Shown here one piece after another: positions 28,008 to 62,284 of a DNA stretch of 62,284 nucleotides. Source of the DNA: Vicinamibacterales bacterium (GTDB lineage Bacteria; Acidobacteriota; Vicinamibacteria; Vicinamibacterales; CAVVIG01). The notes under the pieces are model-generated. The model did no database searches and was not told the origin of the DNA. It saw only the letters and a program-made list of their open reading frames with translations. Positions within the stretch are counted from its first letter, which is position 1. Every line of letters starts with the position of its first letter. Location of the stretch: assembly GCA_036848175.1 (NCBI GenBank), contig DAIUKO010000006.1:1-62284 (forward strand), read 5' to 3'. The position numbers were made by a program, and so were the translations under genes.

Positions 28008-28035
28008 CGGCGCGGGGCTTTCAGGCCCCGCGTCG
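28008..28035. promoter_or_regulatory. GC-rich hairpin in the 78-nt spacer upstream of asnB-like copy 1
   Basis: cgcggggc (28011-18) pairs with gccccgcg (28025-32), loop tttcag, plus 2 more flanking pairs. An alternative pairing is ctttcagg (28018-25) with cctgaaag (28041-48). Confidence 0.5.
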
Positions 28036-28061
28036 GCGACCCTGAAAGGGCCGCCCCACAG

Positions 28062-29285
28062 TTACCGTGACGGCCGGATCATCCGGATAATCCAGCGCTG
28101 CCAGCCGCTGCGCATCCAGTCCTGCTCGCGCCGCAGCTCGTCGATGGTGTCGTCGCGGCGCTGCACCTCGCGCACCATGCGATCGTGGATTTCGCGGATG
28201 ATGTCGTCGCGGCGGTTGACTTCCTGCTGGACCGCCGCCCGTTCGAGGTCGCGCCTGTTGATCTCGTCCTGCATCTTGACGAGCTGCAGTTCGCGATCGA
28301 CGTCGACGCCCGCCGGCTGAGTGGTCATCACCTCCGGCAGCGATCGCCGCCACGATTGCTCCGGATCTTCGATCAGCGTGCGCCAGTTGGCCGCATCGCC
28401 GCTGTCGGCCGGCGCGGCGCCGGCGGCGGGTTTGACCGACAACGTCATCAAGTACTCGCGCATCGTCGGATCCCGAACCATGTTCCAGTGGTTGTGGACG
28501 TCGCGGGACGAGAGCGTGCCGAGCGCGTACGAGCTGTAGTTGAACGCCTCGACTGAAATCTGCCGGTGGCCGATCCGGTGCAGCATCCACACCAGCTCGG
28601 GGATCGTGTACTCGCGGTGATGTCCTTCGAACGGCAGCTCCGTCTCGTATTGCGCGTCGATGCCGGCGAGCACCGTCTCGCCGCGCGCGAACTTCTGGCG
28701 GTTGTAGAGGTGGACGAGGTTCGGCGTGTCGAGGACGAGGACGCCGCCGCCGGCGAGCACGCGATTGAGCGTCTCGAGCAGCGGCCGCGGCGAGCTCGGG
28801 ATGTGCTCGATGACGCCCATGCACAAGACGACGTCGTACGCGCCGCCGACGCTGGCGAGCTCGTATCCGACATCGCCGAAATCGAGCACGCGAACGCCGG
28901 CGTGCGCCAACAGTGGTGTGACGCGATCGAATGCCGGCTGATAGGTGCGATACGAATCGACGGCGTCGACCGAGAACCCGGCGCGCGCGAACATCAACGC
29001 GAAGTTGCCGAAATACGATCCGTAGTCGAGCATCCGCCCGGACGTGATCCCGCGTCGCCGCAGCGCGGCCGCCGCGTGGACCATGCGCGCGATGCTGCAG
29101 CGGAGATAGGCCGGCCAGTCGAAGCCGGCGAGCGCCGGCGACCGCCGCGCGAGCGGGCTGAAGTCAACGCCGGCGATCGCCGCCGCGATCGAGTCGAACG
29201 CCGACCGCGCGCCCGGCAGATCGTCCGGAAAATCCGCCTCGAGGCATTCCGGAAAGTTCAAGGCGAGCCGTTCCTGAACTTCCAT
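28062..29285 (-). CDS. SAM-dependent methyltransferase with C-terminal coiled coil and amphipathic tail (WbdD-like architecture)
   Basis: ORF 28062..30041 trimmed to ATG 29285 (MEVQERL...). MLDYGSYFGNF, VVLCMGVIEHI, GGVLVLDTPN. The last ~90 aa are a charged heptad-like stretch (…QDEINRRDLERAAVQQEVNRRDDIIREIHDRMVREVQRRDDTIDELRREQ) ending WMRSGWQRWIIRMI. Confidence 0.8.
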   Translation of the reverse strand: MEVQERLALNFPECLEADFPDDLPGARSAFDSIAAAIAGVDFSPLARRSPALAGFDWPAYLRCSIARMVHAAAALRRRGITSGRMLDYGSYFGNFALMFARAGFSVDAVDSYRTYQPAFDRVTPLLAHAGVRVLDFGDVGYELASVGGAYDVVLCMGVIEHIPSSPRPLLETLNRVLAGGGVLVLDTPNLVHLYNRQKFARGETVLAGIDAQYETELPFEGHHREYTIPELVWMLHRIGHRQISVEAFNYSSYALGTLSSRDVHNHWNMVRDPTMREYLMTLSVKPAAGAAPADSGDAANWRTLIEDPEQSWRRSLPEVMTTQPAGVDVDRELQLVKMQDEINRRDLERAAVQQEVNRRDDIIREIHDRMVREVQRRDDTIDELRREQDWMRSGWQRWIIRMIRPSR

Positions 29286-31105
29286 CACTCGAGACTCCAC
29301 ACCCCTTCGAGCACGTGTCGTGTGCCGCTGCCGATCAGACCGGACCCGACGACCGACACGTCGAACAGACGCGACACGCAGGAATACACCGACGGGTTGA
29401 TCGAGTAGAACACCACTTGCTCGGTGTCGTAATAGCCTTCCCTGGCGATCATCACGGTCACCGAGTACGACCCGTTGGTCAGCGTCAACTGCGGAATCGT
29501 CAGCCGCACGGTGCCGCGCTGCCGCCTCGATGCATCGAACAGCAGGTCGCGCGTGATGTAGCGGCACACGTCCTCGATGCCGTCCTTGTGCAGCGCGATG
29601 ACCACCTGACACCGCTCGCGCAAATCGGGTTGAAAGATCGCGTAATCGATGTCGAGCCGCGCCCGCTCGCCGTGCTCGAGGATGTGCAGTTCGCCGCCGT
29701 CGGCGGACACGAACCTCGCGCCGGTGACGACGACGGCGCCGGTGCCGTGGACGCCGGAGACGTTCAGCGTGCGCATGGCCGCCTCGCTGCCGCTCGATGA
29801 CGCCATGGCACGATGCGTCGTCCAGTCCGCGGCGGTATCGGCGATGCGGCCGAGCGAGAGCTCGCTGCCGCGGACGTAGAGGCGAACGCTCACATCGCAC
29901 CGCTCGGGCGACGCGTAGTCGATTGAACACGCGAGCGGCTCGTCCGAGTCGAGCAGATCGGCCGGCACGGCGAACACGCCGGCGACCTTGTGGAACGGGC
30001 TGCCGTAGTTCAGCATCGGCCAGCAGACCCGCCCCTGCCACGTCGTCAGATCACCCCAGCTGGTGCCTTCGCGCTCGAGATGCGTGCCGCGATCCGGGTT
30101 GAATGCATCGGGATCGAGCGGCCACGCGGCCACGCGCTCGCCGCCCACGAGCAGAGACACGTCGCTGAGGTAGATCAGCCCGGGCTGCGGCCGGCCATCG
30201 GCGCTCGCGATTTCGAGGACGATGTGATCGACCGTGCGCGCTTTCGGATTCGCGGCAGCGAGCTCCTCCAGCTTCTGCTGTTTTTTCAGCCGCAGGCGAT
30301 GTTCTTCCTGGCGGCGGATGGAGTCCTCGTACGCCTTGACGACGGTCGGTCCGTCGCCGTCCATCAGCACGCGGCCGCGATCGAACCAGATGACGCGGTC
30401 GCACATGCGCACCGCCGAATACACGTCGTGCGTCACCAGCAGCAGCGTCGCGTCGTGCCGTTCGCACAGATCGCGCATGCGGTCGTAGCTTTTCTGCGCG
30501 AAGTAGGCGTCGCCGACGCCGAGCACTTCGTCGAGGACGAGCAGGTCGGGCGAGATTGCCGTCGACGCGGAGAACATCAGCCGCATCGCCATCCCCGTCG
30601 AGTAGGTCTTCACCGGCTGGTCGATGTACTCCTCGAGTTCGGCAAAGGCGATGGCGTCGGCACAGCGCCGCTCGGCGTCGCGGCCGGTCACACCAAGCTG
30701 CGCGAGGTACGCCTCGACGTTCTGCCGGCCGGTGAAATCGGGATGGAAACCGGTGCCGATCTGCAGGAGCGCGTGCACGTCGCCCTTCACCTCGAGCGTG
30801 CCCGACGTCGGTTCGATCACCCTGGTGACGAGCTTGAGGAACGTGCTCTTGCCGGCGCCGTTGCGGCCGATCACCGCAATCTTCTCGCGGCGGCGGATCT
30901 CGAGCGTGATGCCGTCGAGCGCCGCGTGCTCCGTGTACGCGCCCGGCCGGTCGCCGAGCATCCCGAACATGTCGAGAAATCGATACGACGGCTTCGCGTA
31001 GAGCCGGTAGACCTTCTTCAAGTCCGTCGCCCGGATCACGACCTCGCCGACGTCAGCGGCATCGACGCGACTGACCACCGCCGCGGCGTTGACGGCCTCG
31101 CTCAT
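29285..31105 (-). CDS. Wzt-like ABC transporter ATP-binding protein with ~340-aa C-terminal extension (no adjacent permease)
   Basis: ORF 29285..31936 trimmed to ATG 31105 (MSEAVNAAA...; ATGA). Walker A GRNGAGKST, signature YSTGM, Walker B LLVLDE. These are followed by a short coiled coil and two beta-rich modules. Confidence 0.85.
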   Translation of the reverse strand: MSEAVNAAAVVSRVDAADVGEVVIRATDLKKVYRLYAKPSYRFLDMFGMLGDRPGAYTEHAALDGITLEIRRREKIAVIGRNGAGKSTFLKLVTRVIEPTSGTLEVKGDVHALLQIGTGFHPDFTGRQNVEAYLAQLGVTGRDAERRCADAIAFAELEEYIDQPVKTYSTGMAMRLMFSASTAISPDLLVLDEVLGVGDAYFAQKSYDRMRDLCERHDATLLLVTHDVYSAVRMCDRVIWFDRGRVLMDGDGPTVVKAYEDSIRRQEEHRLRLKKQQKLEELAAANPKARTVDHIVLEIASADGRPQPGLIYLSDVSLLVGGERVAAWPLDPDAFNPDRGTHLEREGTSWGDLTTWQGRVCWPMLNYGSPFHKVAGVFAVPADLLDSDEPLACSIDYASPERCDVSVRLYVRGSELSLGRIADTAADWTTHRAMASSSGSEAAMRTLNVSGVHGTGAVVVTGARFVSADGGELHILEHGERARLDIDYAIFQPDLRERCQVVIALHKDGIEDVCRYITRDLLFDASRRQRGTVRLTIPQLTLTNGSYSVTVMIAREGYYDTEQVVFYSINPSVYSCVSRLFDVSVVGSGLIGSGTRHVLEGVWSLE

Positions 31106-32241
31106 CGCCTTCCTGCCGCAGCGCGCGACCGTTCGACAATGCCGCGAAGCGTGGCGGCGAGCGTCGGCGCGTGCACACGCAGCGAATAGCGCTCGTCGAT
31201 CGTCCGGCGGCCCGCCTCGCCCATCCGGAGGCGCAACTCGCGATCGGTGAGCAGCCGTTCGAGCTTCCCCACCCATTCGTCTTCGCTGGAGGCGAGAAAT
31301 CCGTTGACGCCTTCGGCGATGATCTCGCGATTGACGCCAATCGCCGACGCCACGACCGGCACGCCGCACGCCATGAATTCGATGGCCTTGAACCCGCACT
31401 TCCCTTTCGACCACTCGTCGTCGGCGAGCGGGTAGACGCCGATGTCGCAGGTGTTGAACAGCTCGACCTCGCGATCGAGCTTCCACGGCGGCTGATCGGT
31501 GGTGAGGCCGGGAATGGTCAGCGGTTCGTTCGGGCCGCTGACGCGCAGGATGAATCGATGCCGCTCGGCGACGCGCTGCAGCACTCCGGTCAGGCCCTGC
31601 ACGTACGATGCGGTCGTCGGACTGCCGATCCAGCCGACAATCAGGTCGCGATCGCCGCTCGATCCGTTCGCCGAGAACGCGTCGGGGCGCGGCACGAACC
31701 TCGTCGTGTCGACGCAGGTCGGGATGACGGTGACCGCGTCGTTGAAGCGGCGCGCGTAGGCCGCCAGGTACTCGTTGCCGGCGATGATGTGATCGCTGTG
31801 GCGGATGGTCGTAGCGACCTTGCCCGGCGATTTGAGCGGCAGGATCGGACGATTCGCGTCGCTGACGCTCGGCAGAAAAATCGCGTCGTCGAAATCGAAG
31901 ACGACCGGCGGCGTTTCGCGGCGGCCGAGCAGCCACTCGACCAGCGCCGGTCCGATCGGAAAAATCTCGCGATAGATGAGAATGGCGTCGAAACTGGCGG
32001 CATCGTGCAGCGCGCTCAGATGCCGCAGCGACAGCGAGGCGAACGTCGAGGCCTTGCGGATGTATTGACCCGGCTTGTAGACGAGATGGAAGAAGTCGGC
32101 GTCGAACAGCGATCGCAGCGTCACGTCGATGCCCACCGAGCGCAGGTACGGAATGTACTGCGCGATGCGGAACCGGCAGCCCGCACCTTCCTCAGGGATG
32201 GGCGACAGCGCCAGGACGCGAAGGCGATCGTTCACGTTCAT
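31102..32241 (-). CDS. GT4 (GT-B fold) glycosyltransferase
   Basis: ORF 31102..32292 trimmed to ATG 32241 (MNVNDRLRVLAL...; ATGA). KCGFKAIEFMACGVPVVAS. Confidence 0.85.
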   Translation of the reverse strand: MNVNDRLRVLALSPIPEEGAGCRFRIAQYIPYLRSVGIDVTLRSLFDADFFHLVYKPGQYIRKASTFASLSLRHLSALHDAASFDAILIYREIFPIGPALVEWLLGRRETPPVVFDFDDAIFLPSVSDANRPILPLKSPGKVATTIRHSDHIIAGNEYLAAYARRFNDAVTVIPTCVDTTRFVPRPDAFSANGSSGDRDLIVGWIGSPTTASYVQGLTGVLQRVAERHRFILRVSGPNEPLTIPGLTTDQPPWKLDREVELFNTCDIGVYPLADDEWSKGKCGFKAIEFMACGVPVVASAIGVNREIIAEGVNGFLASSEDEWVGKLERLLTDRELRLRMGEAGRRTIDERYSLRVHAPTLAATLRGIVERSRAAAGRR

Positions 32242-32460: not shown

Positions 32461-33243
32461 TCATCGACTCTCTGTCGCAGCCGGTTTCGGCGCATGCGCC
32501 GTCGCGATTTGAAAGAACACCGGACCGCCGCTCGTCGGTAGGGTGAGCAGTACCCCGGGTGCGATGGCGACCGGCTGGTCCGGACCCGGGAACATGCAGC
32601 GCGGCGCACCGTCGACGATTCGGATCGAGGAACATCGAATGCGCAGCGTCGCCGAAAGATCCTGCTGACGAAGCGGAACGACGACGGTGCCCTCTCCGAC
32701 GCGCACGCCCAGCTCGCCCGGCACGTGCGGACCCACGGCGACGACTTCCGCGATGTGCGGCGCAGCCGGCGGGAACTTGTCGCCCACCTTCAGTTGCAGC
32801 GTCGAGCCCTCAGGCGGCGACTTGAGCGTGCCGGTCACCTCGAGCTCGACGTCAGTTGACGTCGGCGACACGGTCAAGGCCTTCGGCAGGCGCGCGATCT
32901 CCTGCATGTAGTCGTAGAGGACGACGTCGTACACGCCGGGCTTCAGATCGGGGACGTCGACGATCGCGTATTTCGTGCTGCCGAGCAGAAACGAGTTGGC
33001 CGGGATCGTGTTGAACGACACGCGCATGAACGGCCGGAAATTCGTGCCGTCGATCTCGAGCCGCTGGTTTGGTCCCTGGACGAGCGTCTTCGGCACGATG
33101 TTGACGAGCGTCGGCGTCGGCGGGCGGAACACCAGGTAGAGACCGATCGCGAATGGAATCAACCCGAGAAGCACGATCGCCGCCGCGACGTCGACGACGT
33201 TGAGGCGGCCCGCGACGCGGCCACGTTCGTCGAGCAGTGTCAC
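32461..33243 (-). CDS. single-pass membrane protein, DUF4330-like N-terminus + IPT/TIG-like beta domains
   Basis: ORF 32461..33294 trimmed to GTG 33243 (VTLLDERGRVAGRLNVVDVAAAIVLLGL...; GTGA). The DUF4330 resemblance is from memory. Confidence 0.65.
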   Translation of the reverse strand: MTLLDERGRVAGRLNVVDVAAAIVLLGLIPFAIGLYLVFRPPTPTLVNIVPKTLVQGPNQRLEIDGTNFRPFMRVSFNTIPANSFLLGSTKYAIVDVPDLKPGVYDVVLYDYMQEIARLPKALTVSPTSTDVELEVTGTLKSPPEGSTLQLKVGDKFPPAAPHIAEVVAVGPHVPGELGVRVGEGTVVVPLRQQDLSATLRIRCSSIRIVDGAPRCMFPGPDQPVAIAPGVLLTLPTSGGPVFFQIATAHAPKPAATESR

Positions 33244-34622
33244 GCCGGCCTCATGCGAAGACCGGGTGGAAACTCGTTCGGAGGCGTCGACCACCGTCGA
33301 TGAAGCGCGCCGAGCAGTTCACAGGCGCCGACTCCGCTCAGCCACACGAGGTACGGCAGCGCGAGCGAGCGGTGGCGGACGAGCGTGCCGACGTTGCCAT
33401 CGGTGAACGCGGCGGCCGCCGCGATCAGCACCGTACTCGTCACGAGCAACCCGGTCATCGCCGCGTCGCGCCGCAATCCGGATCGCGTGCCGACGACCGC
33501 GAGGATGACCAGGACGTACCAGACGATCTGTTCAGGAATATACGCGGCGGCGGCTGGCGATGGAGAATCCCACGGCCGCGGCACCGTCAGGAACGCCGCG
33601 GCACCGCGCCCGAGAAAACGCATCGTCTCCTTGAATTCGAGGCTGGAGACCTGATTGATGTCGGGATAGAACCGGTCGTCGAGCAGGCGATACCGGTAGC
33701 CGCTCGAGACGACGACCGCTCCCCAGTGCTGGCGGGCCGCGCGTTGGACGGCGACGTAGAGCCGCAGTTGAACCGCCGGGATGCGCACGAGCGCGCCGAA
33801 CAGAATCGGAGCGGCGACGAGCGTCGCGATCATCAGCCGACGTCGCGACGCGAGCAAGCCGGTCACCAGGCCGCCAGCCGCGGCCAACGCCAGAAACGAT
33901 GCGCCGCCGGCGCGAATCGTCTGCAGGATCGCCGCGACTCCGACGAGCGCGATCGCGATGGACGCGCGCCGCAGTAATGAGTCGGCGCGTGCCAGCCCGG
34001 AGGCGAGCACAATGCCGAGCGCGCTGACGAACACGAACAGCGGCTCCTTCAGCACCGACACCGACCACGCGAAGAGACTCGGGAGATACAACAGGACCGC
34101 GAGACCGAAGAGCGCCGGCATGCGGCCGAGCGTGACGCGCACGGCTCGATACAACAGCAGCACAGCGGCGATGTAGAGCGCGATGCTGAGGAGATGCAGG
34201 CCGTACGGCGACGGCCCGACGATCATTTGGATGAAGGCGAGCAGGTCGACGAAGCTCGAGCTGGCGTTCGGCTCGAACGCGTACTCGATGTCGAAGTTGT
34301 ACATCGAGATGCCGAGCGTGACGTTGCGCAGCCACAGCGACCGCTTGATGTAGTACTCCTCGTCGGCGAAGAAGCGCCCGAACGCGACCTGATCGTGATT
34401 GGTGACGAGAAACAGCGCCGCGATGGCCAGCACGCGCAGGGCGATCGCCAAGACGACGAGCGTCGTCGCCCAGCGTCGCTCGTCGCCGTCCAGATCGCGC
34501 ATGCCGAGCCGCACGATCCCGACGATCGCCAACGCGAACAAGACCGTCAGCGGCGACAGCGCCCACGCGATGCCGATGGCCATCAGCGCGAGCGTGGCCA
34601 CAAGGATGGGTTTCGAGCTCAC
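33240..34622 (-). CDS. polytopic membrane protein (polymerase/GT-C-like, unassigned)
   Basis: 460-aa ORF with a GTG start (GTGA with the upstream stop). Many TM helices and a loop with FFADEEYYIKR. Confidence 0.7.
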   Translation of the reverse strand: MSSKPILVATLALMAIGIAWALSPLTVLFALAIVGIVRLGMRDLDGDERRWATTLVVLAIALRVLAIAALFLVTNHDQVAFGRFFADEEYYIKRSLWLRNVTLGISMYNFDIEYAFEPNASSSFVDLLAFIQMIVGPSPYGLHLLSIALYIAAVLLLYRAVRVTLGRMPALFGLAVLLYLPSLFAWSVSVLKEPLFVFVSALGIVLASGLARADSLLRRASIAIALVGVAAILQTIRAGGASFLALAAAGGLVTGLLASRRRLMIATLVAAPILFGALVRIPAVQLRLYVAVQRAARQHWGAVVVSSGYRYRLLDDRFYPDINQVSSLEFKETMRFLGRGAAAFLTVPRPWDSPSPAAAAYIPEQIVWYVLVILAVVGTRSGLRRDAAMTGLLVTSTVLIAAAAAFTDGNVGTLVRHRSLALPYLVWLSGVGACELLGALHRRWSTPPNEFPPGLRMRPA

Positions 34623-35770
34623 GCCAGCGCCTCGGTGAGCACGCGGTCGTAGACGAGCGCGATCGACTCGGTCCGGTACTGCTCGGCGTGTCGCCGCGCA
34701 CCATCGGCCATCTTCTGGCGGAGCGCGGCGTCGTGCAGGAGCGACGCGAGCGCCGCGGCAAAGGCAGCGGGGTCGTGATCGTCGACCAGCAACCCGTTCG
34801 CGCCCGACGTCACGATTTCACGCGTGCCCGGCGAGCTGGTGGCGACGACCGGGACGCCGCACGCCATCGCCTCGACGATCACGTTGCCGAATCCTTCGTA
34901 TCGCGACGTCAACGCGAACACGTCGGCGCGAGCGATGTAGCTCCAGGGGTTGGTCCGAAAACCGCACAGGTGAACGCTGTCGTCGAGACCGCGATCGTGA
35001 ATCAGCCGCCGCAGCTCCGCTTCCTGATCGCCTTCGCCGAGGATGAACAGCGACGCCGGCATCTCGTGTCGCAGGATCGCGACGGCTTCGACGAGGAGCG
35101 GAAAGTTCTTCACGGCCGCAAGGCGGCCCGCGGCGACGATCACGGGACGACGCCACCGCGCGGCGTCGGCGGCATCGAGCGGCTCTCGCGCCGCGGCGGC
35201 GACCGAGGCGAGATCGACTGGATTGTTGACCACGCGGACGCGCGCCGACTGGCCGCGAAACGATTCGATCAGATCGTCGGCGACGCCTTGTGAGGTCGCG
35301 AGCACGAGATCGGTCACCGTGCAGCCGATGCGCATCGCCGTCGCCAGCATCCAGCGATTCCACGGACGCGACCATCGAAAGTCGGCGTCGGTCAGAAACG
35401 CGGACATCGGCGTTCCGACGGCGAAGACCACCTTGGCGCCGACGCCGGCCGCACGTGCCGCAGTCAGGACGGTCAGATAGCTGAGAAACGCGACGATCAC
35501 GTCAGGCCGGGTGCGGCGGATGAACTGACGCAGCGCATTCCAGCGTCCCACCCGGCCCAGAGAAGCGGTCGGCACCGCGGCTTCGAGGCGAATCGACGGT
35601 GCGACGTCGGCGAGGTATGGTCCGCGGCGCTCGAACAGGAACATCGATCGATCCCATCGCGCCGCATCGAGTGCGTTCAGGACCTGCACCGCGACGCGCT
35701 CGGCGCCGCCGCCGGAGAGCGACGGCACGACGAAGCAGACTTTCAGGCGAGGCTCGGTCGTGTGCTTCAT
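34619..35770 (-). CDS. GT4 (GT-B fold) glycosyltransferase
   Basis: 383-aa ORF with SLSGGGAERV and EGFGNVIVEAMACGVPVVAT. Confidence 0.9.
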   Translation of the reverse strand: MKHTTEPRLKVCFVVPSLSGGGAERVAVQVLNALDAARWDRSMFLFERRGPYLADVAPSIRLEAAVPTASLGRVGRWNALRQFIRRTRPDVIVAFLSYLTVLTAARAAGVGAKVVFAVGTPMSAFLTDADFRWSRPWNRWMLATAMRIGCTVTDLVLATSQGVADDLIESFRGQSARVRVVNNPVDLASVAAAAREPLDAADAARWRRPVIVAAGRLAAVKNFPLLVEAVAILRHEMPASLFILGEGDQEAELRRLIHDRGLDDSVHLCGFRTNPWSYIARADVFALTSRYEGFGNVIVEAMACGVPVVATSSPGTREIVTSGANGLLVDDHDPAAFAAALASLLHDAALRQKMADGARRHAEQYRTESIALVYDRVLTEALA

Positions 35771-37926
35771 CCGGCCGGCTGCGCGGCAGGCTGGCGGAGT
35801 GCGACGTGCAGCTGGCTCGACACCATTGCCGCAATCCGCGCCGCCTGCGTCTCGAGCGTGTACGTCCGTGCCGTTCGGTAGCCGTTCGCAATCAGGGCGC
35901 GCCGGAGATCGGCGTCACGAATGATTCGTGCGACGGCGCCAGCGATCTCCTCCGGTAATGCCTGGTACTCGTAGGGCGGCCCGTTTGGGGCCGCCGCCGT
36001 TTCGACGAGCAGCCCGTTCGCTTCGTGTGTGATCAGACTCGGAATTCCCGCGACGCGCGTCGTCACGATCGGCACTCCCGCGCTCATCGCCTCGAGCAGG
36101 ACGCGCGGCACACCTTCGCCGGGCAGCGTCGGCAGCACGAACAGATCGTAGTCGGCGTACATCGGCAGCAGCCGATCGAGCGGCACGATGCCCACCAGCC
36201 GGACACGGTCGGCCACAGCGAAGCGCTCGGCGTCGGCGACGATCGCGGTCTGCTCGTCGCGGCCCGGCGATCCGACCACCGGACCGACGATGTCGAGTGT
36301 CACATCGAGGCCGGCATCAACGAGGAGCCGCACCGCCTGCGGAAGCACACGCAGCCCCTTGCGCGGATCGATGCGGCTGACCGACATCAGGCGCACAGCC
36401 CGATTGAGGCAGGTATCCTCGCGTGTCGCGATGTCGCGCTCGCCGATCGTCGTCGTGATCGTCTCGATGACCGGGCGATCGGCGCGCGTGTGCTTCGCCG
36501 TCAGCGCTGCGCCGTTGGCAAATGTCAGCGCGCGATCCGCCATCCATTGAATGTTTCGTTCCTCGAATGCCGTATACCAGCGCCAGAGGGCCCGCTTGAT
36601 CCCCCGATAGGGCAGCGTCGGCAGCAGCGCGCGGAGATCCCCGACGATCAGGATGAATGCCGGCCGATCGAGCAGACGGCCGATCGCAAAGGCGAACGCG
36701 GCCGCCGGGCTCGGAACGCGGCAATGCACGACATCGATTCGGCGCGCCCAGCGGACCAGTCTCGGCAACACGGTCGCGAGACGGCGGTAGAACTGCAGCG
36801 GACCGTCGAAGGCCGGAAGCGGCGCCACGGTCACGTTGGTCGATCGAATCGGGGTTCCTTCTCCGGCCGGCGACTCGAGGAGCGGCACGCACAGGGAGAT
36901 CTCGTCGAAGTACGGCGCGAGCGAATCGACGTATCGCGCGAACGATCCCTCGGGCTCGCGCAGCGTGCCATCGGCTCCGCGCCAGAACGGCATGTGGTAG
37001 ACGATGCCAAGGTGGATTCCCGTCGGGATTTGGGATTCGGGATTTGGGATTCGGTCGGGATTCGGGGTTTGGGACTTGGGATTCGGGATTCGGTCGGGAC
37101 TCGGGATTTGGGACTCGGGATTCGGGATTCGGTCGGGATTTGGAGTTTGGGATTCGGGACTCGGGATTCGGTCGAGATTCGGGATTCGGTCCGCATTCGG
37201 AATGCGATGGTCGCGCTTTCGGGCCACCGCGAGCACGTGGAGATGCACGTCCGACCGGAATCGCTCGATCGATTCGACGTCGAGATCGACCGCTGCAAGA
37301 ACCTCCTCCACGCGCTGCTCGTCGGCGTAGAGCCCGCCGCTCATCAACCGCGCGCGCAGCCGGCGCCGCAGTCCCTCCGGCGCAATTCGCAGCAGCCTTT
37401 CGCCGATGCGCCGGCTCACCGTTCTCGGCACCGAGAAGGACATCGGATGCACGGTCGTGAACGCGAAGCGCCCGCCCGGCCGGAGCCATCGCTTCACTCT
37501 CGACGCCATCGTGTCGTCGAACGGCGAATGCTCGGCGAGGACGCCGATCGAGTACACGAGATCGAACTCGCCGTCCGGGAACTCGTGTTTCAGAAAATCG
37601 CCTTCGACCAGCGTGAGACACTCCGCGGGAATCGACACCTCGCCGACGGGATGCCGCGCCCGCTCGAGCATCGGCTGCGAGACGTCGATGCCGACGAGCC
37701 GCCGCACATGAGGGAGGGCCTGGAAATATCGTCCCGTGCCGCAGCCGAGATCGAGGACGTCGATCGGCCGCATGAACCGGTTGCAGACCTCGCGCAGCCA
37801 CGCGCAGAAGTGACCGTAGGCTTCGCCGCTGCGGATCGTCTCGTCATGCGCGCGATACTGCTCGGCATACGCGTCGGTGTACAACGCCGCGGCTCGTGCT
37901 CCCCACCGCGTCCGGACATCGATCAA
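35767..37926 (-). CDS. fusion protein: SAM methyltransferase - Pro-rich tandem-repeat linker - GT4 glycosyltransferase
   Basis: ORF 35767..38370 trimmed to TTG 37926 (LIDVRTRWGARAAALYTDAY...; TTGA with the carbamoyltransferase stop). MT motif VLDLGCGTGRYF, a linker of DRIPNPESQIPSP-type 13-aa repeats, and GT4 motif EGVPRVLLEAMSAGVPIVTT. Confidence 0.8.
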   Translation of the reverse strand: MIDVRTRWGARAAALYTDAYAEQYRAHDETIRSGEAYGHFCAWLREVCNRFMRPIDVLDLGCGTGRYFQALPHVRRLVGIDVSQPMLERARHPVGEVSIPAECLTLVEGDFLKHEFPDGEFDLVYSIGVLAEHSPFDDTMASRVKRWLRPGGRFAFTTVHPMSFSVPRTVSRRIGERLLRIAPEGLRRRLRARLMSGGLYADEQRVEEVLAAVDLDVESIERFRSDVHLHVLAVARKRDHRIPNADRIPNLDRIPSPESQTPNPDRIPNPESQIPSPDRIPNPKSQTPNPDRIPNPESQIPTGIHLGIVYHMPFWRGADGTLREPEGSFARYVDSLAPYFDEISLCVPLLESPAGEGTPIRSTNVTVAPLPAFDGPLQFYRRLATVLPRLVRWARRIDVVHCRVPSPAAAFAFAIGRLLDRPAFILIVGDLRALLPTLPYRGIKRALWRWYTAFEERNIQWMADRALTFANGAALTAKHTRADRPVIETITTTIGERDIATREDTCLNRAVRLMSVSRIDPRKGLRVLPQAVRLLVDAGLDVTLDIVGPVVGSPGRDEQTAIVADAERFAVADRVRLVGIVPLDRLLPMYADYDLFVLPTLPGEGVPRVLLEAMSAGVPIVTTRVAGIPSLITHEANGLLVETAAAPNGPPYEYQALPEEIAGAVARIIRDADLRRALIANGYRTARTYTLETQAARIAAMVSSQLHVALRQPAAQPAG
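37011..37208. repeat. imperfect GGGATT[CT]/GGGACTC heptamer satellite organised in 39-nt (5x7+GGTC) higher-order units, inside the fusion CDS
   Basis: Read directly: gggattt gggattc gggattt gggattc ggtc / gggattc ggggttt gggactt gggattc gggattc ggtc / ... At least 21 recognisable heptamers lie between 37025 and 37187, followed by two 18-nt units. Confidence 0.9.
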
Positions 37927-39863
37927 TCGAGGACGAACTCCTGTCGCCACGATTCGTCCTTCATCTCCGGCGTCATCGTCTGGTCGGTCTTGAGCAGCAG
38001 ATGGTGTTCGAGCACGAGCGCGTCGATGTTGGTCCGCATGAAGCACCGGTACGCGTCTGCCGGCGTGCAGACGATGGGCTCGCCGCGAACGTTGAAGGAC
38101 GTATTGACGATGACCGGACAGCCGGTCAGCCGAAAGAAGGCGTCGATGACGTCGTAGTAGAGCGGGTTCGTCTCGCGCCTGACCGTCTGAATGCGCGCCG
38201 AGTAGTCGACATGGGTGACCGCGGGAATCGTCGAACGTGGCACGTTCAGCCGCTCGATGCCCCAGAGCGGCGCGGCCTCGTCGAGCGCCGGCTGTTCGGG
38301 CAGCCGCCGCGTTTCGTCGACGTCGGCGACGAGGAGCATGTACGGACTGTCGCGATCGAGCTCGAACCATGAGGCGACATGCTCGCGCAGGACGGCTGGC
38401 GCGAACGGACGGAACGACTCGCGGAACTTGATCTTGAGGTTCATCATCGACTGCATGCGCGGCGATCGCGCGTCACCGATGATCGAACGGGCGCCGAGCG
38501 CGCGCGGTCCGAACTCCATGCGGCCGTGCAGCAGGGCGACGACTTTTTCCTGCGCGAGGAGCGCCGCGATTTCCCCGGCCAGCGCCGACGGATCGACGCG
38601 CCTGGCCGCGCCGCCCTGAGCGTCGAGGAACGCCTGAATCTCGTCGTCGGTGAACCGCGGACCGAGCAGCGATCCCTGCATGAGGTCGGCGTACTTCGGC
38701 GGAATCGACGGTCGCGCGGCGTGAAGCGGCCGGCCAGCCTCCGCCAACGCCTTTGCCGGCTCGCGCCGCGGACGCTCCCACGTCCCGTCCGCCTCGCAAC
38801 TCACGCGCGGTTTGCCGAGATGACGATGCCACAGGCTCAACGCCACGCCGAGAGCGCCGCCGGCATCGCCGGCTGCCGGTTGAATCCAGATCTCGTCGAA
38901 TGCCCCGTCGCGAAGAATGCGGCCGTTCGCGACGCAGTTGAGCGCGACGCCGCCCGCCATGCAGAGATCGCGCATGCCGGTCTCGCGGCGCGCGAACTGC
39001 GCCATCTTCAGCATCACCTCCTCGGTGATGTCCTGAACGGAACGCGCGAGATCCATTTCCCGCTGCGTCAACGGAGTCTCAGGCTCGCGGGCCGGGCCGT
39101 CGAACAACTGCTCGAACCCGCGGCCGGTCATCGTCAGTCCGTGCGGGTACGTGAAGTAATCCATGTTCATCCACACGGTCCCGTCGTCGCCGATCTCGAG
39201 AAGATGGTCTTTGATCGCCTTGACGTACTTCGGCGTGCCGTACGGCGCGAGGCCCATCACCTTGTATTCGCCCGAGTTCACACGGAAGCCGGTGAAGTAG
39301 GTGAACGCCGAATAGAGCAGGCCGAGTGAATGCGGAAATCGCAGCTCGTGCATCAGCTCGAGATCGCTGCCGCGGCCGATGCCGATTGACGAGGTCGCCC
39401 ACTCGCCAACGCCGTCGATGGTGAGGACCGCCGCCTGCTCGAACGGCGAGGGATAGAACGCGGAGGCCGCGTGCGACTCGTGGTGCTCCCCGAACAGCAC
39501 CTCGCCTTTGTAGCCCTCGAGGTGGCCTTGGATGTCGTCGGCCATCCAGAGACGCTCGCCGATCCACAGCGGCATCGCCTTCAAGTACGACTTCAACCCC
39601 TTCGGTGCACACGCGACGTAGGTCTCGAGCAGCCGTTCGAACTTGACCAGCGGCTTCTCGTAGAAGCCGACGAGGTCGAGGCTGCGTGCGTCGACGCCCG
39701 CCTCACGAAGGCAGTACTCAATCGCCCGCGACGGAAAGCCGGCGTCGTGCTTCTTGCGCGTGAAGCGCTCCTCCTGCGCCGCCGCGATGACGCGGCCGTC
39801 CTCGACGAGACACGCCGCTGAGTCGTGGTAGTACGCGGAGATTCCGAGGATACGTATCGACAA
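37923..39863 (-). CDS. carbamoyltransferase (NodU/CmcH/SxtI family)
   Basis: ORF 37923..39965. The conserved N-terminus begins at TTG 39863 (LSIRILGISAYYHDSAACLVEDGRVIAAAQEERFTRKKHD). ATG 39965 would add 34 low-complexity residues read through a tandem repeat. Confidence 0.9.
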   Translation of the reverse strand: MSIRILGISAYYHDSAACLVEDGRVIAAAQEERFTRKKHDAGFPSRAIEYCLREAGVDARSLDLVGFYEKPLVKFERLLETYVACAPKGLKSYLKAMPLWIGERLWMADDIQGHLEGYKGEVLFGEHHESHAASAFYPSPFEQAAVLTIDGVGEWATSSIGIGRGSDLELMHELRFPHSLGLLYSAFTYFTGFRVNSGEYKVMGLAPYGTPKYVKAIKDHLLEIGDDGTVWMNMDYFTYPHGLTMTGRGFEQLFDGPAREPETPLTQREMDLARSVQDITEEVMLKMAQFARRETGMRDLCMAGGVALNCVANGRILRDGAFDEIWIQPAAGDAGGALGVALSLWHRHLGKPRVSCEADGTWERPRREPAKALAEAGRPLHAARPSIPPKYADLMQGSLLGPRFTDDEIQAFLDAQGGAARRVDPSALAGEIAALLAQEKVVALLHGRMEFGPRALGARSIIGDARSPRMQSMMNLKIKFRESFRPFAPAVLREHVASWFELDRDSPYMLLVADVDETRRLPEQPALDEAAPLWGIERLNVPRSTIPAVTHVDYSARIQTVRRETNPLYYDVIDAFFRLTGCPVIVNTSFNVRGEPIVCTPADAYRCFMRTNIDALVLEHHLLLKTDQTMTPEMKDESWRQEFVLD

Positions 39864-39897
39864 TGGAGTTATTAGCGGCGCTGAATCAACATGATAT

Positions 39898-39933
39898 TTC
39901 TCTGTGTTCTTTGTGTTCTTTGTGTCCTTTGTG
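39898..39933. repeat. 4 tandem copies of a 9-bp unit (TTCTTTGTG-like) in a low-GC spacer
   Basis: ttctctgtg ttctttgtg ttctttgtg tcctttgtg, read directly between the SxtK-like stop (39937) and the carbamoyltransferase TTG (39863). Confidence 0.9.
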
Positions 39934-39936
39934 CTG

Positions 39937-40095
39937 TTAGAACAGCGTGTAGATGAAGGGTGCAACGGCGCTCGACTGTGAGAACACGATCAGCAAGCCG
40001 AACAGCACGAAGACGACGACGATCGGCACGAGCCAGTATTTTTTTTCCTGGCGCAGGAACATCCAGAACTCCGACAGGACTCGACCCTTGCTCAT
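39937..40095 (-). CDS. small single-TM peptide, DUF5989/SxtK-like
   Basis: Internal ATG 40095 of ORF 39937..40224: MSKGRVLSEFWMFLRQEKKYWLVPIVVVFVLFGLLIVFSQSSAVAPFIYTLF. Family resemblance is from memory. Confidence 0.7.
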   Translation of the reverse strand: MSKGRVLSEFWMFLRQEKKYWLVPIVVVFVLFGLLIVFSQSSAVAPFIYTLF

Positions 40096-40102
40096 AACAT
40101 CC

Positions 40103-40516
40103 TCAATACATGCGCGAGTAATGCTGTCGATCGCGATAGCGGTCCGGGTACGGCACCCAGCGAGGGCCTGGCGTCCGGCGCAGCGCCAGCGGATCCTTGC
40201 CGGCGAGCCGCCAGACGATTCCAAACGGCACGAAGACGACGATGAAGAGGAACGTCAGCAGGAGGCGCGCGTTGAAATCGCCGACGACGCGCGCAACGCG
40301 CCACCACCAGATCCGCGGCCACTTCAGCACCGATGGCGCGACGGCGCCGAAGAAGATCAGCGCGACACCGATCGCGCCGACGACCTCGGCGCGCAGCGGG
40401 TGGCGGCGCCAGATCAACGCGGCGGCAATCACGCACAGGACCGCGCCAACCGAAAGGCCGAACGATCGATCGGTTCCCGGAAGCGCCGCCGATCTCGACG
40501 TGTTGTTCATCGACAT
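40103..40516 (-). CDS. SxtJ-like small membrane protein
   Basis: 137-aa ORF with several TM helices. Its position next to the small peptide and carbamoyltransferase matches the SxtJ/SxtK/SxtI arrangement (from memory). Confidence 0.65.
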   Translation of the reverse strand: MSMNNTSRSAALPGTDRSFGLSVGAVLCVIAAALIWRRHPLRAEVVGAIGVALIFFGAVAPSVLKWPRIWWWRVARVVGDFNARLLLTFLFIVVFVPFGIVWRLAGKDPLALRRTPGPRWVPYPDRYRDRQHYSRMY

Positions 40517-44127: not shown

Positions 44128-45296
44128 GCCTTCGCGGCCAGGAAGCGCTCGTCGGGCCGGCGCGCGGCAATCGCTCGGCGGTAGACGGCGAGCAGCTGGG
44201 AGGCGCTGGCACGCCACGAGCACTCGGACGACGCCTTTGCCCGGTTGTGCATCCCGGCCGCGCGCGCGGCGTCCGGCTGCACGAGAAACCGCTCGATCGC
44301 GTAGGCGAGCGCCGCCGCATCGCCGCGCGGCACGACGGCGCCGCCCATCGGATCCTTGACGAAATGCCGCACGCCGCCGACGTCGGTCGCGACGACGGGA
44401 AGGCCGCTCGCCATGGCCTCGAGGACCGCGTTCGGCGAATTGTCGAAATCCGATGACAGCGCGAACACGTCCGCACTCCGATAGAACGGCGGCGTGTCCT
44501 CGTGCGGGATCGCGCCGGCAAAGGTCACCGATTCGGCGAGGCCGAGCTGCGCGGCGCGCGCGCGCAGCGCCGGACCCTCGGGACCGTCGCCGACGATGAC
44601 CAGGTGGACGTCGGGAACGTGGGTGCGGACGCGGGCGACGGCGTCGACGAGCAGCGCGACGTTCTTGATCGGTACCAGACGCGCGACGCCGAGCACCACG
44701 CGCTTGCGATCCAGCCGCAGCGGCTTGCGCAGCGCGGCGCCGTCGGGATGGAACGCGGCGGCGTCAACGCCTTTCGAGACGCGCTCGATCGGCCGGCCGA
44801 TCTTCGCGGGCAGATGGTCCGCGGCCCATCCGTCGGCGACGAGCGCATCGGCGAGCTGCAGATCGGCGCGATACCGCGGGTTCGGCTCGCCGGGCAGGTT
44901 GATCACCACGGGGATGTCGCCGATGCGAAGGCGCGCGGCCTGATGCAGCGCGTGCGCGTGCACGATGTCGGGCGGCTCGGCGCCGGCGGCGATGTGGCGC
45001 CATGCCGCGCGGCAGAACCATTCTTCGTCCGCATGCAGCGCCGTCATCGTCAAGCGCCCGAAGCCGCGCCGATGCTGATGGCGGTAGACGAAGTCGCGCG
45101 TGTACGGCGATCGCAGCAGCGTCACCCGTCGCGCCGGGACGTCGCGGGTGCGATAGCGCGGACCGCCGAAGAGGAGCGGCCGGCCGGCGATGATCTCGAC
45201 CTCGACACCGAGCGCGCCCAGTTCGCGCGCCCAGGCGAGGTGACGCGTCTCGCCACCGCCTCGCATCATCGCGAGGCAGCGGACGAGCATTGTCAC
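44124..45296 (-). CDS. GT4 (GT-B fold) glycosyltransferase
   Basis: ORF 44124..45632 trimmed to GTG 45296 (VTMLVRCLAMMRGGGE...; GTGA; ATG 45290 is the alternative). DNSPNAVLEAMASGLPVVAT. Confidence 0.85.
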   Translation of the reverse strand: MTMLVRCLAMMRGGGETRHLAWARELGALGVEVEIIAGRPLLFGGPRYRTRDVPARRVTLLRSPYTRDFVYRHQHRRGFGRLTMTALHADEEWFCRAAWRHIAAGAEPPDIVHAHALHQAARLRIGDIPVVINLPGEPNPRYRADLQLADALVADGWAADHLPAKIGRPIERVSKGVDAAAFHPDGAALRKPLRLDRKRVVLGVARLVPIKNVALLVDAVARVRTHVPDVHLVIVGDGPEGPALRARAAQLGLAESVTFAGAIPHEDTPPFYRSADVFALSSDFDNSPNAVLEAMASGLPVVATDVGGVRHFVKDPMGGAVVPRGDAAALAYAIERFLVQPDAARAAGMHNRAKASSECSWRASASQLLAVYRRAIAARRPDERFLAAKA

Positions 45297-62026: not shown

Positions 62027-62200
62027 GACTGCGGCGTGCGCGGGCGAGGGATTATCCGCGAGGACGCGGGAGCCGCTGGGAAGTGACCGGCCGTTTCTCG
62101 CGTTCACGCATTGAACGTCTTAGTACACCGCGTTGTCAAGCGGCAATTTGCGCCCGCTCGGCTTGGCGAGCCGGGCCGTTTGTGCCAGACTCTCGCCATT

Positions 62201-62282
62201 GCGGATTGAGGATTGCGGATTGCGGATTTATTGGCGATTGGATCCGTCAGGTTGAACGCTTGAATCCCTCAATCAATCCGCT
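62201..62282. repeat. GCGGATT heptamer array with a partial inverted copy, at the window edge
   Basis: gcggatt gaggatt gcggatt gcggatt (62201-62228). The reverse complement of tcaatccgc (62274-82) is gcggattga, which equals 62201-09. Confidence 0.8.
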
Positions 62283-62284
62283 AA

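What the first reader, a model, noticed from the sequence alone, without database searches (positions are those of the whole stretch)
35767..37926. Methyltransferase-GT4 fusion joined by a proline-rich linker built from a GGGATTY heptamer satellite: possible tunable ruler or phase switch
Seen:
- One reading frame (TTG 37926, TTGA-coupled to the carbamoyltransferase stop) encodes a class I SAM methyltransferase (VLDLGCGTG).
- The linker follows: DRIPNA-DRIPNL-DRIPSPESQTPNP-DRIPNPESQIPSP-DRIPNPKSQTPNP-DRIPNPESQIPTG.
- A complete GT4 follows the linker (EGVPRVLLEAMSAGVPIVTT).
- At DNA level (37011-37208) the linker is at least 21 imperfect GGGATT[CT]/GGGACTC heptamers. They are arranged as five heptamers plus GGTC, which is 39 nt or 13 codons. 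The higher-order unit therefore keeps frame although the 7-nt unit does not.
- GC drops visibly here.
Established: in ABC-transporter-dependent O-antigen synthesis, chain length is set by terminator-spacer-polymerase geometry, as with the WbdD coiled coil and with WbbB (terminator-coiled coil-GT).
Inference, two options:
(a) This is a capping-enzyme/rigid Pro-rich spacer/GT protein whose spacer length can change in 39-nt steps.
(b) A 7-nt slippage frameshifts the gene and uncouples or abolishes the GT, giving phase variation.
The linker also looks like a domesticated copy of the intergenic heptamer repeat seen at 62201-62228.
Basis: partly seen in the sequence, partly recalled or inferred. Interest (0 to 1): 0.8.

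Follow-up and report, generated by a model that had tools for sequence, protein, structure and literature searches.

The report
Repeat-made linker fusing two sugar-coat enzymes
In one species of uncultured soil Acidobacteria, a block of 7-base repeats sits exactly where a methyltransferase gene and a glycosyltransferase gene used to overlap, so the two enzymes are now made as one protein joined by a floppy, proline-rich tether whose length differs between strains; this is a clear snapshot of gene fusion, but nothing shows that it acts as a ruler or an on/off switch.

Summary
A minus-strand ORF (35767-37950, or 37926) encodes a class I methyltransferase, a 65-residue Pro-rich repeat and a complete GT4. 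The repeat (37018-37213) is a 22-nt lead, one 18-nt unit and four 39-nt units. Each unit is GACC plus two or five GAATCCC-type heptamers.

New evidence:
- The fusion is confined to one clade with 98-100% protein identity (Vicinamibacterales).
- Every other relative found has separate genes. The four closest loci overlap by ATGA/GTGA.
- The net 196-nt insertion (1 mod 3) erased both the stop and the start and joined the two frames.
- Seven contigs carry seven different linker alleles (100-196 nt). All differ by whole 18/39-nt units and all are in frame.
- Both enzyme halves are under purifying selection.
- The linker has foreign codon usage, is predicted disordered and has no coiled coil.
- Intergenic heptamer arrays, usually inverted hairpin pairs, occur in relatives, once directly upstream of the orthologous GT.

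Verdict: this is a recent, functional gene fusion through an in-frame minisatellite derived from a heptamer repeat. Variation in 39-nt steps is supported. Ruler function is untested and not favoured. A 7-nt phase switch is not supported. It is a new variant of known multidomain MT-GT enzymes, of moderate interest.

The parts
35767..37950 (-). Fused MT-linker-GT4 ORF (727 aa from GTG 37950; 719 aa if TTG 37926 is used)
   Evidence: Seven gene calls that I read at the DNA level start at the GTG. The stop TGA overlaps the ATG of the next GT4 gene (ATGA) at 35767-35770.
37213..37950 (-). Class I SAM methyltransferase domain (aa 1-246)
   Evidence: Pfam Methyltransf_11/25. AF2 pLDDT is above 90 across the domain. 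The best 120 homologues listed are standalone proteins of 228-269 aa. pN/pS = 0 within the fused clade.
37018..37213 (-). Linker array of 196 nt (65 aa). Lead 37192-37213. 18-nt unit 37174-37191. 39-nt units 37135-37173, 37096-37134, 37057-37095 and 37018-37056.
   Evidence: Pro is 26% of residues; GC3 is 0.60 against 0.81 in the rest of the gene. The RNA is unstructured (z = +1.5). AF2 gives mean pLDDT mostly 30-58 over the linker and no secondary structure apart from one 4-residue helical turn.
37009..37017 (-). Former GT start region, now ATC CAC CTT (I-H-L). All relatives have ATG/GTG/TTG here.
35767..37017 (-). Complete GT4 (GT-B) domain with EX7E motif, plus stop codon
   Evidence: Pfam. 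66-83% identical to standalone GTs, typically 404 aa, whose N-terminus is M/V-x-LGIVYHMPFW. pN/pS 0-0.24 within the fused clade.
37923..39863 (-). Upstream O-carbamoyltransferase (SxtI/NodU type). Its stop overlaps the 5' end of the fused ORF.
   Evidence: Pfam Carbam_trans_N/C. A 646-aa gene call in L001. Start region read.
34619..35770 (-). Downstream GT4, translationally coupled by ATGA. In another lineage this gene is fused directly to the GT (P0117).
29285..31936 (-). Wzt-type ABC ATPase with a C-terminal Wzt_C carbohydrate-binding domain. The listed ORF is over-long at its 5' end.
   Evidence: Pfam ABC_tran and Wzt_C, 36.7 bits against a cutoff of 30.4. NCBIfam Wzt/TagH-like. Synteny.
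62198..62284 (+). Intergenic heptamer array (GGATTGC x 4.4), followed by the start of an inverted arm that is cut by the window end

Best explanation
This is a recent gene fusion, confined to one species-level lineage, made by a repeat array.

Ancestral state: the methyltransferase (MT) and GT4 genes were separate and translationally coupled through a 4-nt ATGA stop/start overlap.

The event: in one lineage of Vicinamibacterales (Acidobacteriota), a one-armed array of GAATCCC-type heptamers arose or landed exactly in that overlap. It destroyed both the MT stop and the GT start. Its net length is 1 mod 3, which compensates the -1 offset between the two frames. The two enzymes are therefore now made as one polypeptide of about 80 kDa, joined by a disordered Pro-rich tether (inferred).

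Later evolution: the array has reorganised into 18-nt and 39-nt higher-order units (GACC + 2 or 5 heptamers), both multiples of 3. It now behaves as an in-frame minisatellite. Unequal recombination or slippage between whole units makes tethers of 33-65 residues, and does so faster than point substitutions accumulate in the flanks.

Likely role (inferred): the tether replaces translational coupling as the way to keep the two enzymes together in 1:1 ratio. Its exact length is probably of little or no consequence.

Shown: the architecture, the ancestral state, the allele series, purifying selection on both halves, and the absence of predicted structure in the linker.
Inferred: a single polypeptide in vivo, the mechanism that generates alleles, and the neutrality of length.
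For: 1. Fusion restricted to one clade. After the window's own cluster, the best GT hits (66-83% identity) are standalone proteins, typically 404 aa; the single exception among the 120 listed is the GT-GT4 fusion P0117. The best 120 MT hits are standalone proteins of 228-269 aa. None of the best 150 hits among 1.84 billion representative proteins matches both halves.
2. Ancestral junction. L002, L003 and L035 read AAGCG-ATGA-GATTGGGGATCGTC, and L036 has GTGA. The contig carrying P0006 also shows a 4-nt overlap. In 25 of the 26 relatives with a usable junction the GT starts with its own ATG, GTG or TTG; the approximate start position fell on a non-start codon in L023, and the window clade (window, L001) has ATC.
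3. Frame arithmetic. The net insertion is 196 nt (1 mod 3). All alleles, at 100, 157, 178 and 196 nt, are 1 mod 3.
4. Allele series. There are 9 full-length proteins of 98-100% identity, with lengths 727 x4, 721, 714 x3 and 695. Seven DNA alleles from at least 3 projects all differ by whole units with mosaic order; for example, L033 is the window allele minus unit d. Two alleles recur in independent assemblies: P0122 matches the window, and P0129 matches P0125.
5. Selection. pN/pS is 0 for the MT and 0-0.24 for the GT, at pS 0-5%. The SAM motif and the EX7E motif are intact.
6. DNA-driven origin. GC3 is 0.60 in the linker against 0.81 elsewhere. Asn is AAT in 7 of 7 codons (1 of 8 elsewhere) and Gln is CAA in 4 of 4 (1 of 13 elsewhere). 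Heptamer arrays occur in intergenic DNA of relatives, including directly 5' of the orthologous GT in L004.
7. Precedent within this operon. P0117 (766 aa, cluster of 29 sequences) is the same GT fused to its downstream GT4 neighbour.
Against: - There is no protein-level evidence for a single polypeptide.
- The alleles come mostly from short-read metagenome assemblies. Collapse of repeats during assembly would also remove whole units, so part of the copy-number variation could be artefactual.
- Alleles were found through protein clustering, which could under-sample frameshifted variants. Against this, a 209-aa fragment was clustered, so short products are not excluded.
- The MT-only search did not return the window's own cluster, so it was not exhaustive for near-identical variants.
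- The intergenic arrays differ from the linker in unit sequence, and they are inverted pairs, whereas the linker has one arm. The origin of the array is therefore not demonstrated.
Confidence: 0.7

Rival explanations
1. Tunable tether or ruler. The MT is the chain terminator and the GT is a polymerising enzyme. Linker length, changed in 18/39-nt steps, sets how readily the cap is added and so tunes the glycan chain-length distribution between strains.
For: - The cluster has a Wzt with a Wzt_C domain. In known systems this domain reads a terminal cap (PMC2943079).
- Known terminators sit in proteins with a spacer, sometimes fused to polymerase GTs: K. pneumoniae O7 ORF6, WbbB and WsaE (PMC11231755, PMC2943079).
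- Linker length is hypervariable while the flanks are conserved.
Against: - Every relative outside the clade works with no tether at all.
- Known rulers are coiled coils. Here AF2 gives mean pLDDT mostly 30-58 over the linker, with no helix beyond one 4-residue turn.
- The MT is a generic class I fold with no specific match to WbdD.
- The carbamoyltransferase is an equally good candidate for the capping enzyme.
- The role of the GT is unknown.
Confidence: 0.12
2. Phase-variable contingency locus. Slippage by one heptamer shifts the frame and switches the GT off, leaving an MT with a junk tail.
For: - The base unit is 7 nt, which is not a multiple of 3.
- All three frames are open through the array.
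- The GT has lost its own start codon, so a frameshift would abolish it.
Against: - 9 of 9 full-length alleles are in frame, and every length difference is a whole 18/39-nt unit.
- Heptamers are degenerate. The longest perfect run is 2-3 copies, well below the tracts typical of phase-variable loci (my own knowledge).
- No near-identical GT-only product appeared among the best 120 listed hits, and none of the 10 members of the window's cluster is an MT-only or GT-only product.
Confidence: 0.04
3. The open frame is incidental. The GT is still translated independently, from ATG at codon 8 or from a non-canonical ATC, and the repeat is in effect an intergenic spacer that happens to lack stop codons.
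For: - GAATCCC arrays contain no stop codon in any frame on this strand, so openness through the array is automatic.
- An in-frame ATG lies 8 codons into the GT.
Against: - All alleles keep the 1 mod 3 length that joins the two frames.
- By my reading of the sequence, no Shine-Dalgarno-like motif precedes the ATC or the internal ATG.
- Starting at the internal ATG would remove the conserved LGIVYH first strand.
- The MT has no stop codon before the end of the GT.
Confidence: 0.08
4. The copy-number polymorphism (not the fusion itself) is an artefact of assembling a tandem repeat from short reads.
For: - Most contigs are MEGAHIT-type metagenome assemblies, judged from names such as k141_.
- Collapse of repeats removes whole units and so preserves the frame.
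Against: - Units differ from each other at several positions, and alleles differ in unit sequence as well as in number.
- Two alleles recur in independent assemblies.
- The array (100-196 nt) is about the length of a read.
Confidence: 0.06

Closest known systems
WsaE of Geobacillus stearothermophilus NRS 2004/3a (S-layer glycan; N-terminal 2-O-methyltransferase plus two rhamnosyltransferase domains)
   Same: An N-terminal methyltransferase is fused to glycosyltransferase module(s) in an ABC-transporter-dependent glycan pathway. In that pathway Wzt is predicted to bind the methylated chain end (PMC2943079).
   Different: WsaE is an established trifunctional enzyme with a shown capping role. Here the fusion is confined to one species-level clade, it has one GT4 module, and the MT's substrate is unknown. 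Sequence homology to WsaE was not tested.
Coiled-coil ruler terminators: WbdD (E. coli O9a / K. pneumoniae O3, O5), WbbB (O12) and K. pneumoniae O7 ORF6 (MT-kinase, coiled coil, two GT2 modules)
   Same: The layout is a terminator-type enzyme, then a spacer, then GT modules in one protein. The transporter has a Wzt carbohydrate-binding domain. Length-dependent geometry is conceivable (PMC11231755).
   Different: The spacer here is a disordered Pro-rich repeat, not a coiled coil. No kinase domain is present. No sequence or fold match specific to WbdD was found. Orthologues have no spacer at all.
In-frame coding minisatellites (variable-number tandem repeats) and Pro/Thr-rich interdomain linkers (my own knowledge)
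   Same: The repeat unit is a multiple of 3. Copy number varies between strains. The product is a low-complexity, flexible interdomain segment.
   Different: The units here are higher-order repeats built from a 7-nt satellite. The array created the fusion by replacing a stop/start overlap, rather than expanding inside a pre-existing linker.
Intergenic heptanucleotide repeat arrays in bacteria (for example TAACTGA repeats in Beggiatoaceae and cyanobacteria; heptamers as the commonest long simple repeats)
   Same: These are 7-nt tandem arrays concentrated between genes and close to start codons (PMC4679880). Arrays in Vicinamibacterales sit at stop/start junctions.
   Different: TAACTGA arrays carry stop codons in the forward orientation and stay non-coding. 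The GAATCCC array has no stop codon in any frame and has been taken into an ORF. The Vicinamibacterales intergenic arrays are mostly inverted pairs that fold into hairpins.

Membership tests
Class I SAM-dependent methyltransferase (Pfam Methyltransf_11/25) | Profile match above the curated cutoff, with the glycine-rich SAM motif I | tested here: met
   67 bits against cutoffs of 21-27. The motif VLDLGCGTG is present.
Class I SAM-dependent methyltransferase (Pfam Methyltransf_11/25) | Rossmann-like seven-strand fold | tested here: met
   The AF2 model has pLDDT above 90 across the domain. Foldseek finds class I MTs at E down to 7e-14.
GT4 retaining glycosyltransferase (GT-B; Pfam Glycos_transf_1) | Profile match above the cutoff, the EX7E motif, and a full-length two-domain body | tested here: met
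   80-89 bits. The motif EGVPRVLLE is present. The domain aligns end to end with standalone orthologues, typically 404 aa.
Coiled-coil molecular-ruler terminator proteins (WbdD / WbbB / KpO7 ORF6 type) | An extended coiled-coil spacer between the terminator and the polymerase or membrane end | tested here: not met
   The linker is 26% Pro. AF2 gives mean pLDDT mostly 30-58 over the linker and no helix beyond one 4-residue turn.
Coiled-coil molecular-ruler terminator proteins (WbdD / WbbB / KpO7 ORF6 type) | The catalytic domain adds a chain-terminating cap | not testable with these tools
   Only generic MT similarity was found. This needs biochemistry.
Coiled-coil molecular-ruler terminator proteins (WbdD / WbbB / KpO7 ORF6 type) | Works with a Wzm/Wzt exporter whose Wzt carries a cap-binding C-terminal domain | tested here: met
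   ABC_tran plus Wzt_C at 36.7 bits in the same operon.
Simple-repeat phase-variable (contingency) gene | A long, near-perfect tract inside the ORF whose unit is not a multiple of 3 | tested here: not met
   The heptamers are degenerate, and the longest perfect run is 2-3 copies.
Simple-repeat phase-variable (contingency) gene | Alleles in the population that differ by units which toggle the reading frame | tested here: not met
   9 of 9 alleles are in frame, and all differences are 18/39-nt units. Deep population data were not available.
In-frame coding minisatellite (VNTR) | A tandem unit that is a multiple of 3, with copy-number differences between otherwise near-identical strains | tested here: met
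   Units are 18 and 39 nt, present in 0-1 and 2-4 copies. Flanks are 98-100% identical.
WsaE-like MT-GT multidomain glycan enzymes | An N-terminal MT and C-terminal GT module(s) in one polypeptide within an ABC-transporter glycan cluster | tested here: met
   Architecture and genomic context. This shows resemblance in layout only.
WsaE-like MT-GT multidomain glycan enzymes | Sequence homology to WsaE | not tested

The most novel reading that the evidence does not exclude
The strain-to-strain differences in tether length (33-65 residues, in 6- or 13-residue steps) change how often the tethered methyltransferase caps the chain made with the GT. Under this reading, a heptamer-derived minisatellite would act as a heritable, stepwise tuner of surface-glycan length or capping. 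That would be a disordered-tether counterpart of the coiled-coil ruler, and it would have arisen from intergenic repeat DNA.
Probability: 0.12. Interest if true: 0.75.

Novelty: new variant of a known kind. Interest (0 to 1): 0.45.

Why it matters
- It catches a gene fusion shortly after it happened, with the ancestral state (ATGA-coupled genes), the agent (a heptamer-derived array) and the frame arithmetic all readable.
- It shows how non-coding simple repeats can become a protein linker.
- It offers a natural series of tether lengths between two glycan-assembly enzymes. This series could be used to test whether proximity between a methyltransferase and a glycosyltransferase matters for chain length or capping in ABC-transporter pathways.
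- It points to heptamer-array hairpins as a recurrent intergenic feature of a major but poorly studied group of soil bacteria.

Tried and rejected
- Plasmid collection, near-identity DNA search of the ORF: no match.
- Exact look-up of the window's own protein P0001 in the contig index: not on record.
- Metagenome scan with a 24-nt junction pattern, intended as a frame-unbiased census of alleles: only one contig was returned. Alleles therefore had to be gathered through protein-cluster members, which is a possible bias.
- Search with the linker peptide alone: 673 word candidates, none scored. This says nothing about reuse of the repeat elsewhere.
- MT-only search for frameshifted near-identical variants: the best hit was 82% identical. 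The window's own cluster was not returned either, so the search is not exhaustive for close variants.
- Combined MAFFT alignment of the fusion with MT and GT homologues: the MT sequences were misaligned (A2). I therefore modelled only MT + linker (A3). The full-length model was not made.
- Rfam on the whole window: no family.
- NCBIfam: only sub-threshold generic GT4, MT and ABC matches.
- Representative hits carrying an N-terminal extension before the GT (P0264, P0288, P0303 and others): on reading, they are noisy or frameshifted read-throughs from the upstream GT-like gene, not MT-GT fusions.
- Literature searches for heptamer or tandem repeats in Acidobacteria or Vicinamibacter: nothing found.


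Full report
**1. What is in the sequence**

On the minus strand one frame is open from 38370 to the stop at 35767-35769. From TTG 37926 it encodes 719 aa.

Pfam places two domains, both above their curated cutoffs:
- Methyltransf_11/25 at aa 57-156, with motif VLDLGCGTG.
- Glycos_transf_1 / Glyco_trans_1_4 at aa 512-684, with the EX7E motif EGVPRVLLE.

Between the domains lies DHRIPNA-DRIPNL-(DRIPxPxSQxPxP)x4.

At the DNA level:
- TRF reports period 39 (4.2 copies, 86% matches, no indels) and period 7 (25.6 copies) at about 37023-37189.
- Parsing the coding strand gives 37018-37213 = 22-nt lead + GACC(GAATCCC)2-type 18-nt unit + four GACC(heptamer)5 39-nt units.
- The heptamer pair GGGATTCGGGATTC (up to 2 mismatches) occurs 13 times, all inside the linker, against 0.64 expected.
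- GC drops to 0.58 and GC skew reaches +0.54.

There are two corrections:
- Start codon. GTG 37950 gives 727 aa. It has AAGGA 6 nt upstream, it is used in the seven gene calls I read at the DNA level, and the residues it adds upstream of the TTG are near-conserved in the closest unfused orthologue. It is at least as likely as TTG 37926.
- Intergenic heptamer. The unit at 62198-62228 is GGATTGC, so it is related to the linker unit but not identical.

**2. Organism and context**

Related loci in reference genomes all come from uncultured Acidobacteriota, mostly labelled Vicinamibacterales or gp6.

Gene order is conserved: a 714-aa protein of unknown function, SxtJ, DUF5989, carbamoyltransferase, MT, GT, GT4, 460-aa, 260-aa and 72-aa proteins, another GT, and an ABC ATPase with a Wzt_C domain. 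This is an ABC-transporter-type glycan cluster. Its Wzt carries the domain that binds a terminal cap in studied systems (PMC2943079, PMC11231755).

**3. The fusion is derived and young**

- A search of 5.8 billion protein clusters returned the window's own cluster. After it, the listed hits were standalone GTs, typically 404 aa, at 66-83% identity, all beginning M/V-x-LGIVYHMPFW. The one exception was P0117, a GT-GT4 fusion.
- The best 120 MT homologues are standalone proteins of 228-269 aa.
- In the four closest unfused loci the MT stop and the GT start overlap by 4 nt. L002, L003 and L035 read AAGCG-ATGA-GATTGGGGATCGTC, and L036 has GTGA. The gene table of the contig carrying P0006 shows the same 4-nt overlap.
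- In more distant species the MT lies about 2 kb upstream of the GT.
- In 25 of the 26 relatives with a usable junction the GT starts with its own ATG, GTG or TTG. In L023 the approximate start position fell on a non-start codon. The window clade (window, L001) has ATC there.
- Relative to the ancestral junction the window has a net insertion of 196 nt, which is 1 mod 3. That is exactly what is needed to bring the GT frame, offset by -1, into the MT frame.
- In a full HMMER scan of 1.84 billion representative proteins, none of the best 150 hits matched both halves. Hits carrying an N-terminal extension before the GT turned out to be noisy read-throughs from a different upstream gene.
- Fusion across 4-nt overlaps has happened elsewhere in this operon. 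P0117 (766 aa, cluster of 29 sequences) is this same GT joined directly to the downstream GT4.

**4. The linker is a hypervariable, in-frame minisatellite**

The window's 90% cluster holds 9 full-length proteins that are 98-100% identical. Their lengths are 727 (x4), 721, 714 (x3) and 695 aa.

Seven DNA alleles were read: the window plus L001 and L030-L034, from at least three projects. Their structure is as follows:
- Each has the 22-nt lead, 0-1 copies of the 18-nt unit and 2-4 copies of the 39-nt unit.
- Total lengths are 100, 157, 157, 178, 196, 196 and 196 nt.
- All seven differ from one another.
- Unit order is mosaic. For example, L033 is the window allele minus unit d.
- Every difference is a whole unit.

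Two alleles recur in independent assemblies.

The flanks are conserved by comparison. The MT has 0 nonsynonymous and at most 4 synonymous differences. The GT has pN/pS of 0-0.24. Both enzymes have therefore stayed under purifying selection since the fusion, while the linker changes faster than the flanks.

Perfect heptamer runs are only 2-3 copies long. The repeat that is now active is the 39-nt unit, not the heptamer.

**5. Nature and origin of the linker**

Evidence that the repeat DNA dictates the peptide:
- Codon use is foreign to the gene. GC3 is 0.60 against 0.81. Asn is AAT in 7 of 7 codons, against 1 of 8 elsewhere. Gln is CAA in 4 of 4, against 1 of 13 elsewhere.
- GAATCCC arrays have no stop codon in any frame on this strand.

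Structure:
- AF2 on MT + linker gives a confident MT (pLDDT above 90).
- The linker has mean pLDDT mostly 30-58 and no secondary structure apart from one 4-residue helical turn; there is no coiled coil.
- The MT model matches only generic class I enzymes.

Heptamer arrays in relatives:
- L004 has (AGATTGA/C)n plus an inverted (AATCTTC/AATCTGC)n arm. The pair lies exactly between the upstream stop and the orthologous GT start, and it folds as a hairpin (z = -5.6).
- L008 has (AGATTGC)6 plus an inverted arm directly upstream of the orthologous MT (z = -5.3).
- L007 carries further arrays, and L009 has a short repeat hairpin upstream of the GT.
- The array at the window's 3' end is of the same kind.
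- Arrays in L004 and L008 begin at ...ATGAGATTG, the same string as the ancestral MT/GT junction.

The linker differs from these arrays. It has only one arm and is unstructured as RNA (z = +1.5), and its unit sequence is different. An origin from this class of intergenic array is therefore plausible but not shown. Intergenic heptamer arrays as such are known in other phyla (PMC4679880). I found nothing on Acidobacteria.

**6. Interpretation**

Best explanation (confidence about 0.7): an array formed in the ATGA overlap and removed both the stop and the start. Only lengths that joined the frames preserved GT expression. The result is a bifunctional MT-GT4 enzyme with a disordered tether. The tether now evolves by gain and loss of whole 18/39-nt units.

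- The fact of 39-nt steps is right.
- The ruler function has no support. All other lineages manage without a tether, known rulers are coiled coils (PMC11231755), and the MT cannot be identified as a terminator.
- I keep it as the novel case at about 0.12.

- It is not supported. No allele is out of frame, and the heptamers are degenerate.
- Low-frequency variants within populations cannot be excluded.

**7. Caveats**

- There are no protein data.
- Alleles come mainly from short-read metagenome assemblies, and they were gathered through protein clustering.
- The frame-unbiased DNA census returned only one contig.
- The MT-only search missed the window's own cluster.

**8. Verdict**

This is a real and well-resolved example of a recent gene fusion through a repeat-derived linker. 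It is a new variant of known multidomain MT-GT glycan enzymes and of coding minisatellites. Interest is 0.45.

Noticed in passing
L004:1541-1660; L008:9830-9924; L007:811-1121 and 9229-9306; L009:~9500-9570; window 62198-62284: Intergenic arrays of 7-nt repeats arranged as inverted pairs, for example (AGATTGA)n...(TCAATCT)n and (GGTCCTT)13...(GGACTAA)24. They fold into long hairpins (z about -5 for L004 and L008). They often start right at a stop codon with ...ATGAGATTG and end just before the next start codon. They may be an undescribed repeat class in Vicinamibacterales. There is no Rfam family in the window, and no literature was found.
   Followed up: partly
window 39898-39933 (coding strand is minus): Four tandem copies of a purine-rich 9-mer (CACAAAGAA/CACAAAGGA) lie in the short low-GC spacer between DUF5989 and the carbamoyltransferase. 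They are followed by a 6-codon mini-ORF (MLIQRR*) just before the likely TTG start at 39863.
   Followed up: no
P0117 (766 aa; 29 sequences in its cluster); compare window 34619-37017: In another lineage (66% identity) the same GT is fused, with no linker, to the downstream GT4 neighbour. This is a second, independent fusion across a 4-nt overlap in this operon.
   Followed up: partly
window 37923-40516 (minus strand); L001:3450-6028: A conserved trio of SxtJ-like, DUF5989 (52 aa) and SxtI/NodU-type carbamoyltransferase is embedded in a polysaccharide cluster. This suggests an O-carbamoylated glycan, and the carbamoyl group is an alternative candidate for the chain-end cap.
   Followed up: no
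window 40524-42668, 33240-34622 and 28021-28824 (minus strand): Three ORFs (714 aa, 460 aa, 267 aa) have no Pfam or NCBIfam match. The first two keep their place in the conserved gene order. The 267-aa ORF sits where a Wzm permease would be expected.
   Followed up: no
window 25983-27983 and 45293-47173 (minus strand): Two asparagine-synthase-like (GATase_7 + Asn_synthase) paralogues flank the glycan cluster. This echoes the asparagine synthase homologue (wsfA) listed in S-layer glycan clusters (PMC2943079).
   Followed up: no
Searches with the MT part alone and with the linker alone did not return the window's own protein cluster (P0001), although the full-length query did. The word-index search can therefore miss even identical matches for sub-sequences or low-complexity queries.
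   Followed up: no
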